Shown here piece after piece: positions 28,745-34,738 of a DNA stretch of 64,000 bases. Source of the stretch: Candidatus Heimdallarchaeota archaeon (GTDB lineage Archaea > Asgardarchaeota > Heimdallarchaeia > Heimdallarchaeales > Heimdallarchaeaceae); the NCBI GenBank assembly GCA_016840095.1, contig JAEOSZ010000031.1, positions 32,001-96,000 of the forward strand, given 5' to 3'. Position 1 is the stretch's first letter. Each line of letters starts with the position of its first letter. The translations under genes were made by a program, and so were the position numbers. Under the pieces are notes generated by a model that saw nothing but the letters and a program-made list of their open reading frames with translations, was not told where the DNA came from and searched no databases.

Positions 28745-29941
28745 TTACACATCTAAAATTGATGAAAGTGTTTCTAAGAAGATTAGTATCTCCTCTTCAG
28801 TGTTGTATATATGAGTAGAAACTCTAGCTATATCGTTGTATTTCAGTTCATACATATACAAATGGGAACACAAAGCTCCACTTCTAATCTGTATACTTCT
28901 AATATCATCTAAAACAAGAGCTAAGTCATGAGCTTCAATCTTGTCACACCCGAAGGAAAGTATTGGTCCATACTCAACCCCTTCTATTTCATTGATTTCT
29001 ATGGAAGAGATATCTTTTAGATTCTTCCTTAATTCTTCATGTAACTTTTTCTCATGATCTTGAATCTTAGACAAACCAAAGTTTGACAATATTTCAAGAC
29101 TATTAACCATAGCATCAATATTAGCTACATTGACTAAACCTGTTTCAAATTTGGAACCTGAGGAATTTAGAAAATATGAATATTCTTCAAGTGCTATAAT
29201 TGAACCTCCTCCTACAATCAGAGGATCCATTGATTCATAGATCTCTTCACAAGTAATCTGAAACGCGGTCCCTAAGGGACCTAAAGCACCTATACAACCT
29301 GATGAAACAACAATATCTGGTTGAATAACATCAAAATTAGTAACTTCATGACCAACTGAATAACTGATATCAAGGATGAATGTAGCATTAACTTCTTTAC
29401 AGATTTGTGCTATTTTACCCCAATCTCTCTTCACTCCATTAGTAGCGGTTAAAGAAGAAAGGAGAACAACGTCCTTAGATGTTTGAATCTTTTCACTTAA
29501 TTTCTCAATTATATTCATTTCATCTTCTAAATTAAGATAATCTATATTTGTACCAAAAGAATTGTTTACTCGAATTGCAGGTGCAAGCACAGAGTGCTCT
29601 TCTAGAATACTTGTTGTTATTCTTCTTTCCTTAATATTGGGAATTGAGTGAAAAACATTTGTTAGAAGTGTTTCTCTTGTAGGAAAAAATGAAATCTGAT
29701 TAGGAGATATTTTGAAAATATCAGCAAGAGATTTTCTATTCTTATTCAAAAGTTGATTACTTGCAGATATTTCACTATGGATTCCTCTAACTGGAACTCC
29801 TCCAGTGGAAGCATAATAATCGATCATCTTCTTAATGGAAGAGACTGGAAGTTTTCCTACTGTTGCAGAATCTAAGTAAATTTGTTCTTGTTTTAGGTTG
29901 AATTCAATTCCGAATCTTGTAGAAGTTGTCATAAATCCCAT
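28745..29941 (-). CDS. SufS/Csd-like class V aminotransferase-fold protein lacking the PLP lysine
   Basis: YLDSA, RGIH, LIVGGG, KFETG, IRSGALCSH; SGCIGALGP replaces SGHKxxGP. Confidence 0.85.
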   Translation of the reverse strand: MGFMTTSTRFGIEFNLKQEQIYLDSATVGKLPVSSIKKMIDYYASTGGVPVRGIHSEISASNQLLNKNRKSLADIFKISPNQISFFPTRETLLTNVFHSIPNIKERRITTSILEEHSVLAPAIRVNNSFGTNIDYLNLEDEMNIIEKLSEKIQTSKDVVLLSSLTATNGVKRDWGKIAQICKEVNATFILDISYSVGHEVTNFDVIQPDIVVSSGCIGALGPLGTAFQITCEEIYESMDPLIVGGGSIIALEEYSYFLNSSGSKFETGLVNVANIDAMVNSLEILSNFGLSKIQDHEKKLHEELRKNLKDISSIEINEIEGVEYGPILSFGCDKIEAHDLALVLDDIRSIQIRSGALCSHLYMYELKYNDIARVSTHIYNTEEEILIFLETLSSILDV

Positions 29942-30044
29942 TTGTTTTACAATAAGGAGATATTAAAATTTTCCTTGTTCAGAAATCAAAAGGTTTGAAT
30001 AGTATTGAAATAAATGTACATTAGGGAAAATCTAGAGGATGATC

Positions 30045-30080
30045 GTAAGGCATTTGGTAAAGCATTTGGTAAAGCATTTG
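30045..30080. repeat. 3 x 12-bp tandem repeat (GTAAAGCATTTG)
   Basis: gtaaggcatttg gtaaagcatttg gtaaagcatttg. Confidence 0.9.
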
Positions 30081-30121
30081 CTAGGCCAGAAAGAAGCTAA
30101 GGTGACCTATGATTTTCTCTC

Positions 30122-31312
30122 TCATATTTCTGACATTATTGAATCAAGAGTTTCTAAAACAGTATTAATGTCATTTTCTGTGTTATACAAGTGAGTAGAT
30201 ATCTGTACTAAAGATTCTTTCTTTATTTCATCCATAAAGAGGTGTGAACATAACGCACCACTTCTAACATATATATTTGATAAATCTTCAAGAATTATTG
30301 CAATATCATGAGAATCAATTTCGTCACTGAAGAAGGATAAAATGGGTCCAAACTCAAGTCCTTCTTTTTCAATAATCTCTATATTCTTAATCTCTTTTAG
30401 ACCATCATAGAGAATCTTTCTTAAATTTTGTTCATGTTTTTTTATTTTTTCGAATCCAACATTTGATAGCAATTGTAAACTATTGGCTAAACCTGAAATT
30501 GCTGCAAAATTAAGAGAACCTGGTTCAAATTTATAAGGTGAAGATGACAGTTTGTAATCTGATTTATTAACTGAAACTACTGCTCCTCCGCCAATCAATA
30601 TAGGATGGAGATTATTGTTAGTTTTATCATTAACAATTTGGAATGATGCCCCATAAGGACCAAGCGCTCCGATATTCCCTGATGAAATCGTAATGTTAGG
30701 AGAAACATCACTAAAATCATAGTTTGTATGACCTATACTATTGGATAAATCCAAAACAAAGAACAATCCATTGTCTTCAGCAAGTTTAGTAATGGCTCTC
30801 CAATCTCGTAGAACACCTATACCTAAGGTTAATGAAGAAAGAACTATTGCCTTTGTTTTAGGGTTTATTCTTTCTTGTAGAGAAGCTACCAAATCAACTT
30901 CATCTTCAATTCCAGTGAAAATGATTTTGGATCCGAAATATTTGTTTACATTCAATAATGGAGTTATCACAGAATGATCATCTAGTGAACTCGAAATGAT
31001 TTCATCATCGCTCTCAAAACGTTGAGAAAATAGAGTATTAATCATTGCAGTTTCTCTGGATGGAAGAAAAGATATTTGAGAATTTTCAACAAAAAATATT
31101 TTACTAATTATAGAACGAGATTGTTCCAGAGAGCGACTGGCATAAAGTGCTATTTTATGAGTACCTCTATTAATACCTCCACCATGTTTAGAGTAAAAAT
31201 CACTCATTGCTTTAACAGAGGATTGTGGAAGCTTACCAGCAGTTGCTGAATCTAGATAGATTTCATTCTCTTCAATGATAAAATCTATGCCAAAGTGGTT
31301 TTTGACAGTCAT
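30122..31312 (-). CDS. Second SufS/Csd-like paralog lacking the PLP lysine
   Basis: YLDSATAGKLP, RGTH, KFEPG, VRSGALCSH; SGNIGALGP replaces SGHKxxGP; start taken at MTVKNH. Confidence 0.85.
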   Translation of the reverse strand: MTVKNHFGIDFIIEENEIYLDSATAGKLPQSSVKAMSDFYSKHGGGINRGTHKIALYASRSLEQSRSIISKIFFVENSQISFLPSRETAMINTLFSQRFESDDEIISSSLDDHSVITPLLNVNKYFGSKIIFTGIEDEVDLVASLQERINPKTKAIVLSSLTLGIGVLRDWRAITKLAEDNGLFFVLDLSNSIGHTNYDFSDVSPNITISSGNIGALGPYGASFQIVNDKTNNNLHPILIGGGAVVSVNKSDYKLSSSPYKFEPGSLNFAAISGLANSLQLLSNVGFEKIKKHEQNLRKILYDGLKEIKNIEIIEKEGLEFGPILSFFSDEIDSHDIAIILEDLSNIYVRSGALCSHLFMDEIKKESLVQISTHLYNTENDINTVLETLDSIMSEI

Positions 31313-31397
31313 TGACGATAGTGATAAAAATAAGATTGATTTAAACATTTGTTTCAGAACACCATTTTTTTATATATCTTCAAAATTTCAAGCATGC

Positions 31398-31853
31398 ATG
31401 GACAATAATCTAGGTAAGTTAGAAGAAAACATAGAGAAGGAAATTAGGGCATATATTAGTAATTTCAACGAAATATTGGACAATTTAACAAGCTTATCTA
31501 GCAGTATCATCAATAATAAATTCTGGAAATTACGATCTGATTTAGAGTTACTTATAATCGAGATGAAATTATATCTAAAGAAGGAAGATCTAACCGAAAG
31601 ATGGCAAGCTTCTTTTAAAAATGAACTTAAAGGAACGTCCTCTAGAAGTAAAGCTGGGATTATACTAAAGGAGTATAGGGTGAGTGTTGAAGATTCTATT
31701 AGTGTTTTCAAGAAAAAACCTGAGACAACTTATAAATATCTTTGGAAATTAAAAGAAACTATTTCCTCAGTGCTATCAGCATTTCCTGTTGAGAGAATAG
31801 AATTGTTTTATGGTGAGAAAAAACAGGTTTCAGAAGATGTGTTCGAAATCTAG
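31398..31853 (+). CDS. Hypothetical alpha-helical protein
   Basis: ORF from MDNNL; fills the gap between divergent sufS-like gene and ARPC4-like gene. Confidence 0.65.
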   Translation: MDNNLGKLEENIEKEIRAYISNFNEILDNLTSLSSSIINNKFWKLRSDLELLIIEMKLYLKKEDLTERWQASFKNELKGTSSRSKAGIILKEYRVSVEDSISVFKKKPETTYKYLWKLKETISSVLSAFPVERIELFYGEKKQVSEDVFEI

Positions 31854-31901
31854 TTACACCTAACACTAAATATAAATTGGACCAACACTCTGAATACTTG
31901 T

Positions 31902-32390
31902 ATGAGTGCTCATTCAGCTGAGTTCCTTGAAGATAAAGATAAAATCAGGAAAGCTCTTAAGCTTGAACGATATGTCTGTCCACACAGGGAGATTAACTAT
32001 CCTTGTGTTATTTGCAAAGACTGTAGGGAGATGGATTTGAAACAGTATCCATTAAAAAACGGTTTTATCGAAAAAACAAGAAACTCAAGCTTGATTTCAT
32101 TGATTTTAGAACTTAGAGACCCTTTTGATGATATGTTACTCAGAAGGCTAAGTTTAGCACTCTATGAATCTACAGGAATAGTTCAAAAAGAACCAGAACC
32201 AGGTTTTTCGATAACGTTCTACATATCTGAAGCATTGTTAGACAAAATAACAGAAATTGAGAAACTAATTGACTTTATTGCAGATTTTCAACACAAATTC
32301 TTATCAGAAACAATAGCAGCAAGAAGTGCTTTGAATAAGTGGGAGCGGTCAACAACTAAGAGGTTATTGTGGGATATGAGTATTCAATAA
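31902..32390 (+). CDS. Arp2/3 complex subunit 4 (ARPC4)-like protein
   Basis: Colinear similarity to remembered ARPC4: ALKLE/ALCLE, FIEKTRNSSLISL/LIEGSINSVRVSI, QKEPEPGFSITFYI/RRKPVEGYDISFLI, KLIDFI/KLVDFV, long C-terminal helix; similar length. Confidence 0.75.
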   Translation: MSAHSAEFLEDKDKIRKALKLERYVCPHREINYPCVICKDCREMDLKQYPLKNGFIEKTRNSSLISLILELRDPFDDMLLRRLSLALYESTGIVQKEPEPGFSITFYISEALLDKITEIEKLIDFIADFQHKFLSETIAARSALNKWERSTTKRLLWDMSIQ

Positions 32391-32394
32391 TTTA

Positions 32395-33540
32395 CTAAGA
32401 AACACTTTTCCAGTAAAGACCTAGTTTATCTGCATGATTTCTGACTTCATACATTTCTGTAGTAGAAACCCTTTTGTTAATTTCTGGAAATCCACTAGTT
32501 TGAAGGACTTTATAATCTGGGTGATATTGAGCCATGATGTTTACTAAAGGTGTTTTCAGATTCTCACTCACCCAATTCAAGAGAGGTATTGAACAACAAT
32601 TTGTGTGATTTGGCATAACTAAGTGTCGAATTATATACTCACCAGTTCCTCTCTCTTCAATCATTTTCATATTTCTTTGAAGAGCTTCCCAATAATGTGG
32701 AGCTTTGGAATATTTAGATGCACACTCTTTGTTTGCATATTTCATATCTGGTAACCAAATATCAAAAAGATCTGCAATCAATCTCATGCTAGTGTCTGTT
32801 AAGTACATATTACTATTCCATAACATAGGTACATCCACTTGAGAATGGTGAAAAGATTCAAGAATTACATGGAGATTCGGTGTAGGATCTCCCCCTACAA
32901 AATTGATATTTCGAGCATTTTGTTTAACAAGTGTATAGTAATGCTGAGCGAGTTGAGTCGGTGAAGACCCTCTTCCTTTTACTCTATCTAATTCAAATTC
33001 ATGACTAATATCCCAATTTTGGCAGAATTGGCAATGCATAGTGCAACCAAGGAAGAAAATAGTTCCACTTGGAACGATTGGGCTTTCTTCTCCCATGTGG
33101 ATAAATGCAGAACTGACATAAGCACTTCCATCAACTCCACATTTGCCAATTTGTCCTTCCTCTCGATTAGCCTTACATTTGTTTTCACAAAATTCACAAG
33201 AAGAGAGCATATCTTTCAAAATAGCTAACTTTAATGACAAATAATTATTTTTTTCTAAATCTTTATCCTTGAACAGATTTTCAACCTCTTTCTCAACTTC
33301 CTCTAAAGAAAGATGTTGTTTTTCAGAAACCCAATTCTTGAATTTTGAATGATTGTGTTCATGAATATTCAATAGTTCATCTTTATCTTTGAACTCATTG
33401 AAGGGTACATAGAATAATCGAGCTAGTTTATACCTAGGAATTCTCTTACCTTGGAATATTTCTCTATAGTGAACTAATCGTTCTTTAAATTCAACCTGCT
33501 GCCATACTGTCATAGCATCTCTTCTTAAAACCGCCCACAT
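32395..33540 (-). CDS. PflX-like radical SAM protein
   Basis: CEFCENKCKANR, H.GEE....PSGTIFF.GCTMHCQFCQN, VGGDPTP, IRHLVMP. Confidence 0.88.
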   Translation of the reverse strand: MWAVLRRDAMTVWQQVEFKERLVHYREIFQGKRIPRYKLARLFYVPFNEFKDKDELLNIHEHNHSKFKNWVSEKQHLSLEEVEKEVENLFKDKDLEKNNYLSLKLAILKDMLSSCEFCENKCKANREEGQIGKCGVDGSAYVSSAFIHMGEESPIVPSGTIFFLGCTMHCQFCQNWDISHEFELDRVKGRGSSPTQLAQHYYTLVKQNARNINFVGGDPTPNLHVILESFHHSQVDVPMLWNSNMYLTDTSMRLIADLFDIWLPDMKYANKECASKYSKAPHYWEALQRNMKMIEERGTGEYIIRHLVMPNHTNCCSIPLLNWVSENLKTPLVNIMAQYHPDYKVLQTSGFPEINKRVSTTEMYEVRNHADKLGLYWKSVS

Positions 33541-33697: not shown

Positions 33698-34738
33698 ATG
33701 AAGCCGATGTCACAGTCTACAATGCACGAAGCTGAATACTATGAAGTAATTGATGAAGGTAATAGAGTAATTCAATGTCAACTCTGTCCAATTAAATGTA
33801 CATTATTGATAGGGGAAAGAGGTAAGTGTTTTTCACGTGTAAACGTTGAAGGAAAACTGTACTCCTTGACTTATGGATATACAGACATGAAAATTGATAT
33901 GATTGAAAAGCAACATGTTTATCATTTTCATCCAAATTCAAGAGTTCAAACATTTTCTACTTTCAATTGCAATCTGGACTGTGATTACTGTATGATGCCT
34001 GAAAAAATCAGTGTTGATCCAGCAGATACTGGAGCCAAAAAATTAGCGCCAGATCAAGCTGCAATGTTTAGTATGGCTTCTGGATCTAAGGTTATTGCTT
34101 TTGGAGAAGCTGAACCTTTGATTTCTTTTGAATGGGTTCGAGATACAGCCAAGCTAGCTCAGCAAAGAAATCTCAAAGTGTTACTCAGAACAAATGCTTA
34201 TTTCTGTGAAGAGCCTGTAACTGAAATACTAGAATTCGTTGATGCAGTTACAATTGATGTTAAATCGATGTCTGATTCTGGATACCAAGATAAGTGTCAT
34301 GCAGGTACAATAAATGACATTAAGAAAATTATTAAGCTAATCTTCGACAAAGGAAAATTAGTAGAACTAAATCTAGTAATTCATGAAGCTCTTGGAAATA
34401 CAGAAAATCAAACAAGAGAACTAGCTTCGTGGATTATGGAAGAACTCTCGTCATCAGTTCCGCTCCACTTAGCAAGGCTAATACCTTCTCATAGACTAAA
34501 AGAGCTACAACCAACATCTGTAGAATTACTGGAAAAATGTTATGATGTAGCTAAGGAAGTAGGTTTAGAATTTGTTTACCTTGATAATGTACCAGATCAT
34601 GAAGCAACGCATACTTATTGTCCGAAGTGTAAAGAACTACTTATACACAGAGGAGCATCAAATACAGAAGTAAGGAGAGTTTCTCTACACGGTACTTGTA
34701 ATAAGTGTGAAGCTCAGTTAAATATAGTTTTCAAATAG
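33698..34738 (+). CDS. Divergent AmmeMemoRadiSam-type radical SAM paralog
   Basis: CQLCPIKC...C, CNLDCDYC, TYCPKC, CNKC; colinear with 17488..18513. Confidence 0.82.
   Translation: MKPMSQSTMHEAEYYEVIDEGNRVIQCQLCPIKCTLLIGERGKCFSRVNVEGKLYSLTYGYTDMKIDMIEKQHVYHFHPNSRVQTFSTFNCNLDCDYCMMPEKISVDPADTGAKKLAPDQAAMFSMASGSKVIAFGEAEPLISFEWVRDTAKLAQQRNLKVLLRTNAYFCEEPVTEILEFVDAVTIDVKSMSDSGYQDKCHAGTINDIKKIIKLIFDKGKLVELNLVIHEALGNTENQTRELASWIMEELSSSVPLHLARLIPSHRLKELQPTSVELLEKCYDVAKEVGLEFVYLDNVPDHEATHTYCPKCKELLIHRGASNTEVRRVSLHGTCNKCEAQLNIVFK

What the first reader, a model, noticed from the sequence alone, without database searches (positions are those of the whole stretch)
31902..32390. ARPC4 (Arp2/3 subunit 4)-like protein with a Cys/His cluster
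Seen: end-to-end similarity to remembered eukaryotic ARPC4 blocks. The segment CPHREINYPCVICKDC occupies the position of the ARPC4 SSQxVERHNKPEVE loop and could bind zinc. Known: ARPC4 and ARPC2 form the filament-binding backbone of Arp2/3, and ARPC4-like genes are reported eukaryotic-signature proteins in Asgard archaea. Inference: a possibly homodimeric, metal-binding ancestral actin-associated subunit. No actin gene is present in this window.
Basis: partly seen in the sequence, partly recalled or inferred. Interest (0 to 1): 0.72.

Follow-up and report, generated by a model that had tools for sequence, protein, structure and literature searches.

The report
Lone archaeal ARPC4 relative with four-cysteine site
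This Heimdall-group Asgard archaeon encodes a true relative of ARPC4, a core part of the eukaryotic actin-branching Arp2/3 machine; the family is already catalogued, but this copy stands alone, has a conserved four-cysteine probable metal site that eukaryotic ARPC4 lacks, and is predicted to pair with itself.

Summary
The ORF (31902-32390, +, 162 aa) and the segment CPHREINYPCVICKDC (residues 26-41) are real. Homology to ARPC4 holds. Pfam PF05856 scores 30.9 bits against a cut-off of 22.2. A family profile hits solved ARPC4 chains at E 1.9e-12. An AlphaFold model superposes on ARPC4 at Z 14.1, against 8.7 for ARPC2 and under 5 for other folds. Sequence similarity covers only residues ~52-156; the N-terminal third matches by structure only.

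The cluster is Cys4, not Cys/His. C26, C35, C38 and C41 are 89-100% conserved across 37 non-redundant Asgard relatives, and His28 is not conserved.

A symmetric homodimer through the C-terminal helices is predicted (ipSAE 0.78, best control 0.00). That is a model, not a measurement. The genome has a eukaryote-like actin, an ARP-like gene and gelsolins elsewhere. It has no detectable ARPC2, ARPC3 or ARPC5.

The gene is present in 69 of 400 Asgard genomes. In Heimdallarchaeaceae a 151-aa helical-bundle gene always sits directly upstream.

The family is a known eukaryotic signature protein, and this scan has reported it on other genomes. Metal identity, dimerisation and actin binding are all untested.

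The parts
31902..32390 (+). ARPC4-like gene, 162 aa, single copy in the genome
   Evidence: ORF. Pfam PF05856 30.9 bits over the 22.2 cut-off. One hit in the own genome. Within the genus dN is 0.11-0.14 with dS saturated.
31977..32024 (+). Four-cysteine cluster C26-x8-C35-x2-C38-x2-C41, a probable metal site between helix 1 and strand 1
   Evidence: C26, C35, C38 and C41 are invariant in Heimdallarchaeaceae. They are 100/97/89/100% conserved in 37 sequences non-redundant at 80%. His28 is not conserved. The sequence profile does not align this region to eukaryotic ARPC4.
32061..32369 (+). Region with sequence-level match to eukaryotic ARPC4 (residues 54-156), including the invariant N61-S62 and the EPGFSITF strand
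   Evidence: Pfam profile positions 61-165 of 167. Alignments to chains 3dwl_F and 1k8k_F.
32121..32180 (+). Helix 74-93, first half of the predicted homodimer interface
   Evidence: Interface list of complex prediction.
32244..32387 (+). C-terminal helices 115-162, second half of the predicted homodimer interface; contains near-invariant W147
   Evidence: W147 is present in 84% of 37 relatives and is Y in one clade.
31854..31878 (+). Conserved intergenic block ending in TAAATATAAATT, 24-35 nt before the ATG; a likely archaeal TATA-type promoter giving a leaderless or short-leader mRNA (inferred)
   Evidence: The block is conserved in six loci of the same genus while the flanking spacer varies. 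No intrinsic terminator-like site was found.
31398..31853 (+). Conserved upstream gene, 151-aa helical bundle. The real start is M42 of the 192-aa ORF 31275-31853. Candidate partner.
   Evidence: It lies directly upstream on the same strand in all 15 Heimdallarchaeaceae loci examined. Model pLDDT 87.7, six helices. No significant fold or family match.

Best explanation
The gene encodes a stand-alone Asgard homologue of ARPC4 (shown). Its alpha/beta domain and long C-terminal helices have the ARPC4 fold (predicted, high confidence). In place of the eukaryotic helix1-strand1 connector it has a compact loop held by four conserved cysteines. This loop most likely binds a structural zinc ion (inferred from conservation and variable spacing). 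Two copies most likely pair symmetrically through helix 74-93 and the C-terminal helices. In eukaryotes ARPC4 uses the same elements to pair with its structural relative ARPC2, so the dimer would be a homomeric counterpart of the ARPC2-ARPC4 backbone (predicted, untested). The most likely role is a small dimeric scaffold that binds actin or the ARP encoded elsewhere in the genome.
For: Homology: Pfam above cut-off; profile against solved ARPC4, E 1.9e-12; Foldseek E 3e-8; Z 14.1 for ARPC4, 8.7 for ARPC2, under 5 for the rest. Model quality: pLDDT 86.3, and 86-89 over residues 21-40.

Cys4. The cluster is kept in proteins named Heimdall-, Wukong-, Njord-, Freya- and Sigynarchaeota. Where the spacing changes, four Cys are still present (C-x8-C-x7/8-CC).

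Dimer: median ipSAE 0.78 and best of 3 controls 0.00. This mark was reached by 20 of 30 proteins solved as pairs of one chain and by 1 of 23 proteins solved as single chains. The runs share at least 94% of contacts, and the partner's pLDDT is at least 84.

No partner subunits: no match to ARPC2, ARPC3 or ARPC5 in the own genome, which is 89% complete.

Actin toolkit in the same genome: an actin scoring 447 bits (E 2e-160 to yeast actin), an ARP-like gene and gelsolin-domain genes.

Selection: dN 0.11-0.30 with synonymous sites saturated.
Against: No experiment exists for any member in the papers I could search. The metal and its identity are not shown, and I could not read model coordinates to measure Cys geometry. 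The dimer pass may come from the model's memory of ARPC2-ARPC4. Interface columns are no more conserved than other columns of the same region (entropy 2.35 against 2.24). The gene is missing or only weakly matched in most of the largest sampled family (4 of 135 genomes, all below the cut-off). The tool does not name that family. Overall only 69 of 400 Asgard genomes score over the cut-off. There is no conserved actin-related neighbour: the contexts in Wukong and Njord genomes are unrelated. The fold is shared with dimeric secretion chaperones and YbjN.
Confidence: 0.55

Rival explanations
1. The ARPC4 fold acts here as a dimeric adaptor or chaperone-like module unrelated to actin. On this reading eukaryotes recruited it to Arp2/3 only later.
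For: The next structural neighbours after ARPC4 and ARPC2 are type III secretion chaperones and YbjN, which are small dimeric binders. In small genomes (1.3-1.4 Mb) the domain sits in a 383-394 aa protein, after a domain matching PF14196 ATC_hydrolase (28.5 bits, cut-off 28.1) and before a CPYC-containing tail. The distribution is patchy, at 69 of 400 genomes. Published work says all Asgard phyla possess actin (PMC7444086).
Against: The specific sequence and fold match is to ARPC4, far above the chaperones (Z 14 against under 5). The same genome has a very eukaryote-like actin and gelsolins.
Confidence: 0.3
2. The four cysteines hold an iron-sulfur cluster that makes the protein redox- or oxygen-sensitive, rather than a structural zinc.
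For: C-x2-C-x2-C plus a distal C-P recalls ferredoxin-type ligands (sequence). The host is an anaerobe-type archaeon. The window neighbours include SufS-like and radical SAM genes.
Against: The order is reversed relative to the ferredoxin motif C-x2-C-x2-C-x3-C-P. The spacings vary (x7-x9, x2-x5). One clade has C-x8-C-x7/8-CC and one protein lacks the second Cys. That tolerance is typical of structural zinc sites; horse liver alcohol dehydrogenase has C-x2-C-x2-C-x7-C (established knowledge). The SufS-like gene is a neighbour only within the family, the radical SAM neighbours were seen only in this window, and both are absent in the Wukong and Njord loci. No Fe-S family matched.
Confidence: 0.15
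3. The physiological partner is not a second copy but another protein. Candidates are the conserved upstream 151-aa helical-bundle protein or an ARPC2 analogue too diverged to detect.
For: The upstream gene is adjacent in 15 of 15 Heimdallarchaeaceae loci spanning five genera. Eukaryotic ARPC4 is an obligate heterodimer partner of ARPC2 (established knowledge).
Against: The upstream gene is absent next to the Wukong and Njord homologues. A conserved promoter-like block separates the two genes. The homodimer prediction is strong. No ARPC2 match was found. Neighbourhood alone is weak evidence.
Confidence: 0.2

Closest known systems
Eukaryotic ARPC4 (p20-Arc, Pfam PF05856; chain F of 1K8K, 2P9P, 3DWL, 6W17)
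   Same: Same length class (162 against 168 aa) and same fold (Z 14.1, 136 residues aligned). Shared motifs are N-S in strand 3 and P-x-G-[YF]-x-I-[ST]-F. The C-terminal helices serve as the pairing surface.
   Different: About 21-23% identity. The helix1-strand1 connector is replaced by a Cys4 loop that does not align to ARPC4 by sequence. No ARPC2, ARPC3 or ARPC5 is detectable in the genome. It is predicted to pair with itself. W147 is an Asgard-specific, near-invariant residue.
Asgard 'ARP2/3 complex subunit 4' eukaryotic signature protein, e.g. the hypothetical protein HeimAB125_10170 of Heimdallarchaeota AB_125
   Same: 92% identical to this gene and of the same length. This gene is a member of that catalogued family.
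   Different: Nothing essential. The published mentions I found list only the homology (PMC7444086, PMC7522288, PMC12583498). They do not describe the Cys4 site, the dimer or the upstream partner gene.
Eukaryotic ARPC2 (p34-Arc, PF04045)
   Same: Same alpha/beta domain and C-terminal helix (Z about 8.7).
   Different: ARPC2 has two such domains and is about 300 aa long. No sequence match was found.
Type III secretion chaperones and the YbjN family
   Same: Same general alpha/beta sandwich, in small dimeric binders.
   Different: Only Z 4-5 and no sequence signal. They lack the long C-terminal helices and the Cys4 loop.

Membership tests
ARPC4 protein family (Pfam PF05856, homology) | Profile match above the curated gathering score | tested here: met
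   30.9 bits against 22.2, residues 54-156 on profile positions 61-165 of 167. 0 of 14 control genomes match.
ARPC4 protein family (Pfam PF05856, homology) | ARPC4 fold: N-terminal helix, alpha/beta domain and long C-terminal helices superposable on chain F of Arp2/3 structures | tested here: met
   Z 14.1, rmsd 3.1 A, 136 aligned residues, model 9-146 against 10-155. Foldseek E 3.4e-8, TM 0.65. The model is predicted, pLDDT 86.3.
ARPC4 protein family (Pfam PF05856, homology) | Conserved core motifs (N-S strand; P-x-G-Y/F-x-I-S/T-F strand) | tested here: met
   Alignments to 3dwl_F and 1k8k_F. N61 and S62 are 100% conserved in 37 Asgard relatives.
Arp2/3 complex (seven-subunit actin nucleator) | ARPC2 partner and the ARPC3 and ARPC5 subunits encoded in the same genome | tested here: not met
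   No match to PF04045 or PF04062, and only sub-threshold noise for PF04699. The genome is 89% complete, and very diverged forms could escape detection.
Arp2/3 complex (seven-subunit actin nucleator) | Dedicated Arp2 and Arp3 paralogues | tested here: inconclusive
   One actin and one 489-aa ARP-like gene are present. The ARP-like gene matches Arp1 and actins about equally. No phylogeny was made.
Arp2/3 complex (seven-subunit actin nucleator) | Binding to the side of an actin filament and nucleation of branches | not testable with these tools
   This needs biochemistry.
Structural Cys4 zinc site | Four conserved Cys ligands close in sequence | tested here: met
   C26, C35, C38 and C41 are 100/97/89/100% conserved. 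A variant clade keeps four Cys in another spacing.
Structural Cys4 zinc site | Tetrahedral geometry and bound zinc | not testable with these tools
Metal analysis is needed.
Ferredoxin-type [4Fe-4S] site | C-x2-C-x2-C-x3-C-P motif with fixed spacing | tested here: not met
   The order is reversed (C-P ... C-x2-C-x2-C) and the spacing varies among relatives. No Fer4-type Pfam match.

The most novel reading that the evidence does not exclude
The Asgard protein is a zinc-stabilised homodimer that clamps onto the side of actin filaments. On this reading it is the pre-duplication form of the ARPC2-ARPC4 backbone of Arp2/3. In Heimdallarchaeaceae it would act with the conserved upstream helical-bundle protein as a minimal filament-organising module.
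Probability: 0.2. Interest if true: 0.8.

Novelty: new member of a known kind. Interest (0 to 1): 0.42.

Why it matters
How the seven-subunit Arp2/3 machine arose is an open question in the origin of the eukaryotic cytoskeleton. A small, soluble, single-gene ARPC4 relative sits in a genome with a very eukaryote-like actin. That allows a simple bench test of whether the filament-binding backbone predates Arp2 and Arp3 and began as a homodimer. The conserved Cys4 site and the family-specific upstream partner gene are concrete handles for that test. The gene family itself is not new.

Tried and rejected
1. The profile search of the 5.8-billion protein set returned only Asgard proteins. I therefore had no eukaryotic ARPC4 sequences for a tree or for a residue-level alignment of the N-terminal third.

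2. The 'longer' search found nothing, although a fused 383-aa form exists (P0061). That search is uninformative.

3. Interface against non-interface conservation showed no difference.

4. dN/dS could not be given as a number because dS is saturated.

5. The upstream helical protein has no Pfam or NCBIfam family: Focal_AT E 0.03 and FlgK E 0.11 are both far below cut-off. Foldseek gave nothing below E 0.17. The top rows mix the talin VBS3 fragment with designed bundles and cytochrome b562, so this is a generic bundle only.

6. The Pfam profilin search found nothing. Asgard profilins are known to be very diverged, so no conclusion follows.

7. A functional link to the neighbouring SufS-like and radical SAM genes was rejected. 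The SufS-like gene recurs only within the family, the radical SAM genes were seen only in this window, and the Wukong and Njord loci have unrelated neighbours.

8. The sigma-70 promoter scan is not applicable to archaea.

9. Cys-Cys distances could not be measured because no model files are readable.

10. I did not test the claim in earlier scan notes that actin-contact residues are retained, and I do not rely on it.

Full report
**Observation.** The window has an ORF at 31902-32390 on the + strand, 162 aa. Residues 26-41 read CPHREINYPCVICKDC, nt 31977-32024.

**Identity of the organism.** The closest proteins are 87-94% identical hypothetical proteins of Heimdallarchaeota/Heimdallarchaeaceae MAGs, including AB_125. 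The window lies on contig C163 of a 3.44-Mb, 165-contig genome, 89% complete.

**Homology to ARPC4.**
- Pfam ARPC4 (PF05856) scores 30.9 bits against a curated cut-off of 22.2, over residues 54-156 on profile positions 61-165 of 167.
- The single sequence hits solved ARPC4 chains only weakly (E 0.003).
- A profile of 18 diverse Asgard relatives hits them at E 1.9e-12 to 2.1e-11. Nothing else falls below E 0.2.
- An AlphaFold2 model (pLDDT 86.3, pTM 0.82) finds ARPC4 chains first by Foldseek (E 3.4e-8, TM 0.65). ARPC2 chains come next.
- VIA-align gives Z 14.1, rmsd 3.1 A and 136 aligned residues, model 9-146 against chain 10-155. ARPC2 scores Z 8.7 or less, and type III secretion chaperones score under 5.

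The protein is therefore a real ARPC4 homologue. The sequence signal is confined to the C-terminal two-thirds. The N-terminal helix and the connector that follows are equivalent by structure only. The Cys segment lies in that connector. My recollection of the eukaryotic N-terminal sequence is from memory and was not tested.

**The cysteine cluster.**
- In 16 Heimdallarchaeaceae sequences C26, C35, C38 and C41 are invariant. His28 varies (H, T, Q, K, R, N, M).
- The library of 1.84 billion representatives holds only 18 relatives at E 0.001 or better. The 10 of their clusters that I looked up carry Wukong-, Njord-, Freya-, Sigyn-, Hermod- and Heimdallarchaeota names where a name is given.
- These relatives keep the cluster with spacings C-x7-9-C-x2-C-x2-5-C. 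One Hermod/Prometh protein has lost the second Cys.
- One clade of large genomes has either a five-Cys version or C-x8-C-x7/8-CC, so four Cys remain.
- Over 37 sequences non-redundant at 80%, conservation is 100/97/89/100% for the four Cys. At position 28 the commonest residue is K, at 43%.
- The profile does not align this region to eukaryotic ARPC4.

This is an ancient, Asgard-wide Cys4 site and not a Cys/His site. I read it as a structural zinc site. The spacing is tolerant, and C-x2-C-x2-C with a distal fourth Cys is a known structural zinc pattern, as in alcohol dehydrogenase (established knowledge). An Fe-S cluster is not excluded. Geometry could not be measured because model coordinates are not readable.

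**Oligomer.** Two copies were folded with the 18-row alignment. The median ipSAE was 0.78, against 0.00 for the best of three controls. The tool's calibration says this mark was reached by 20 of 30 proteins solved as pairs of one chain and by 1 of 23 proteins solved as single chains. The runs agree in at least 94% of contacts, and the partner's pLDDT is at least 84. The interface is symmetric: residues 74-93 and 115-162. The Cys loop is not among the confident contacts. In Arp2/3 structures ARPC4 and ARPC2 pair through their C-terminal helices (established knowledge; Robinson et al. 2001). The pass may therefore reflect likeness to that solved pair. Interface columns are not more conserved than neighbouring columns. 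W147, which lies in the interface, is near-invariant in Asgard proteins and aromatic in the rest.

**Genomic setting.**
- The gene is single-copy in the genome.
- No ARPC2, ARPC3 or ARPC5 match was found.
- The genome does encode an actin scoring 447 bits on Pfam, with E 2e-160 to yeast actin and E 1e-196 to a solved 'HC1 actin'. It also has a 489-aa ARP-like gene and two-domain gelsolins.
- Across 400 Asgard genomes PF05856 is over its cut-off in 69. It is common in the own family (25 of 30) and in several others (21 of 22, 6 of 6, 4 of 4). It is almost absent from the largest sampled family (4 of 135, all sub-threshold).

The gene is therefore widespread but dispensable for Asgard archaea in general.

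**Neighbours.** The ORF called upstream (31275-31853, 192 aa) is conserved only from its M42, giving a 151-aa protein (31398-31853). A homologue (29-50% identity) lies directly upstream on the same strand in all 15 Heimdallarchaeaceae loci examined, which span five genera. Its model is a six-helix bundle (pLDDT 87.7) with no significant family or fold match. It is absent beside the Wukong and Njord homologues, whose neighbours are unrelated. Between the two genes, a 25-nt block ending in TAAATATAAATT is conserved within the genus, 24-35 nt before the ATG. I read this as a TATA-type promoter for a leaderless or short-leader mRNA (inference). The SufS-like and radical SAM neighbours do not travel with the gene outside the family.

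**Fused form.** A 383-aa protein places the ARPC4-like domain, with its Cys cluster, after a PF14196 ATC_hydrolase-like domain (28.5 bits against 28.1) and before a CPYC-containing tail. Open frames of 383-394 aa in genomes of 1.3-1.4 Mb match the same family. This fusion gives no support for an actin role and keeps the non-actin rival open.

**Selection.** Against genus and family relatives, dN is 0.11-0.30 while synonymous sites are saturated. The protein is under strong purifying selection.

**Literature.** Papers in the library mention Asgard homologues of Arp2/3 subunit 4 only as catalogue entries. They state that some Heimdallarchaeota may contain a distant homologue (PMC7444086, PMC7522288, PMC12583498). 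A 2026 preprint lists ARPC4 among catalogue-matched structural clusters (10.64898/2026.10.28.762692). I found no biochemical study and no description of the Cys4 site.

**Earlier scan notes.** This scan has already reported the same family on at least six other genomes, with similar readings: metal site, self-pairing and an Odin-type fusion. Those notes are not independent evidence. I reached the homology, the Cys4 site, the dimer prediction and the fused form from my own calls.

**Verdict.** This is a well-supported new member of a known Asgard signature-protein family. What goes beyond the published catalogue is the conserved Cys4 site, the predicted homodimer and, for this family of genomes, the conserved upstream helical-bundle gene. 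Function remains untested.

Noticed in passing
window 31275-31853 (+): The 192-aa ORF is probably over-called. Homologues in 13 related loci start at the position of M42 (31398), giving about 146-151 aa. Conserved motifs are LWxIRxxLE, WQ, YxxLWxLKExI, AFP and a C-terminal IFEI.
   Followed up: partly
window 28745-31348 (-): Two tandem SufS-like paralogues (398 and 408 aa) score far below the NCBIfam SufS cut-off (185 and 201 bits against 475). One SufS-like gene also lies in this position in Heimdallarchaeum endolithica (L006).
   Followed up: no
window 32395-33540 (-) and 33698-34738 (+): Two radical SAM genes lie back to back. The second just reaches the AmmeMemoRadiSam radical SAM model (221.4 bits against 220). 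The first is a diverged relative (44 bits) with a roughly 150-aa N-terminal extension.
   Followed up: no
P0061 (383 aa); open frames of 383-394 aa in G300-G303: Three-part protein in genomes of 1.3-1.4 Mb: an ATC_hydrolase-like domain, an ARPC4-like domain with the Cys cluster, and a CPYC-containing tail.
   Followed up: partly
L019, L023, L026, L027, L029, L033, L041 (family f5): A clade of ARPC4-like proteins in 4-6 Mb genomes has the cluster rearranged to C-x8-C-x7/8-CC, often with D-P-D-H before the CC pair. Some genomes carry two copies (G070, G075).
   Followed up: partly
L003:841-2310 (own genome, contig C107): A 489-aa actin-related protein. The Pfam actin match is split (positions 4-106 and 109-407) by an insertion, and only residues ~220-487 align well to solved actins and Arp1.
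   Followed up: partly
L002 (contig C119, start) and L005 (contig C118, end): The main actin gene begins at the very edge of contig C119. A separate actin N-terminal fragment sits at the edge of C118. This suggests an assembly break or a second actin copy.
   Followed up: no
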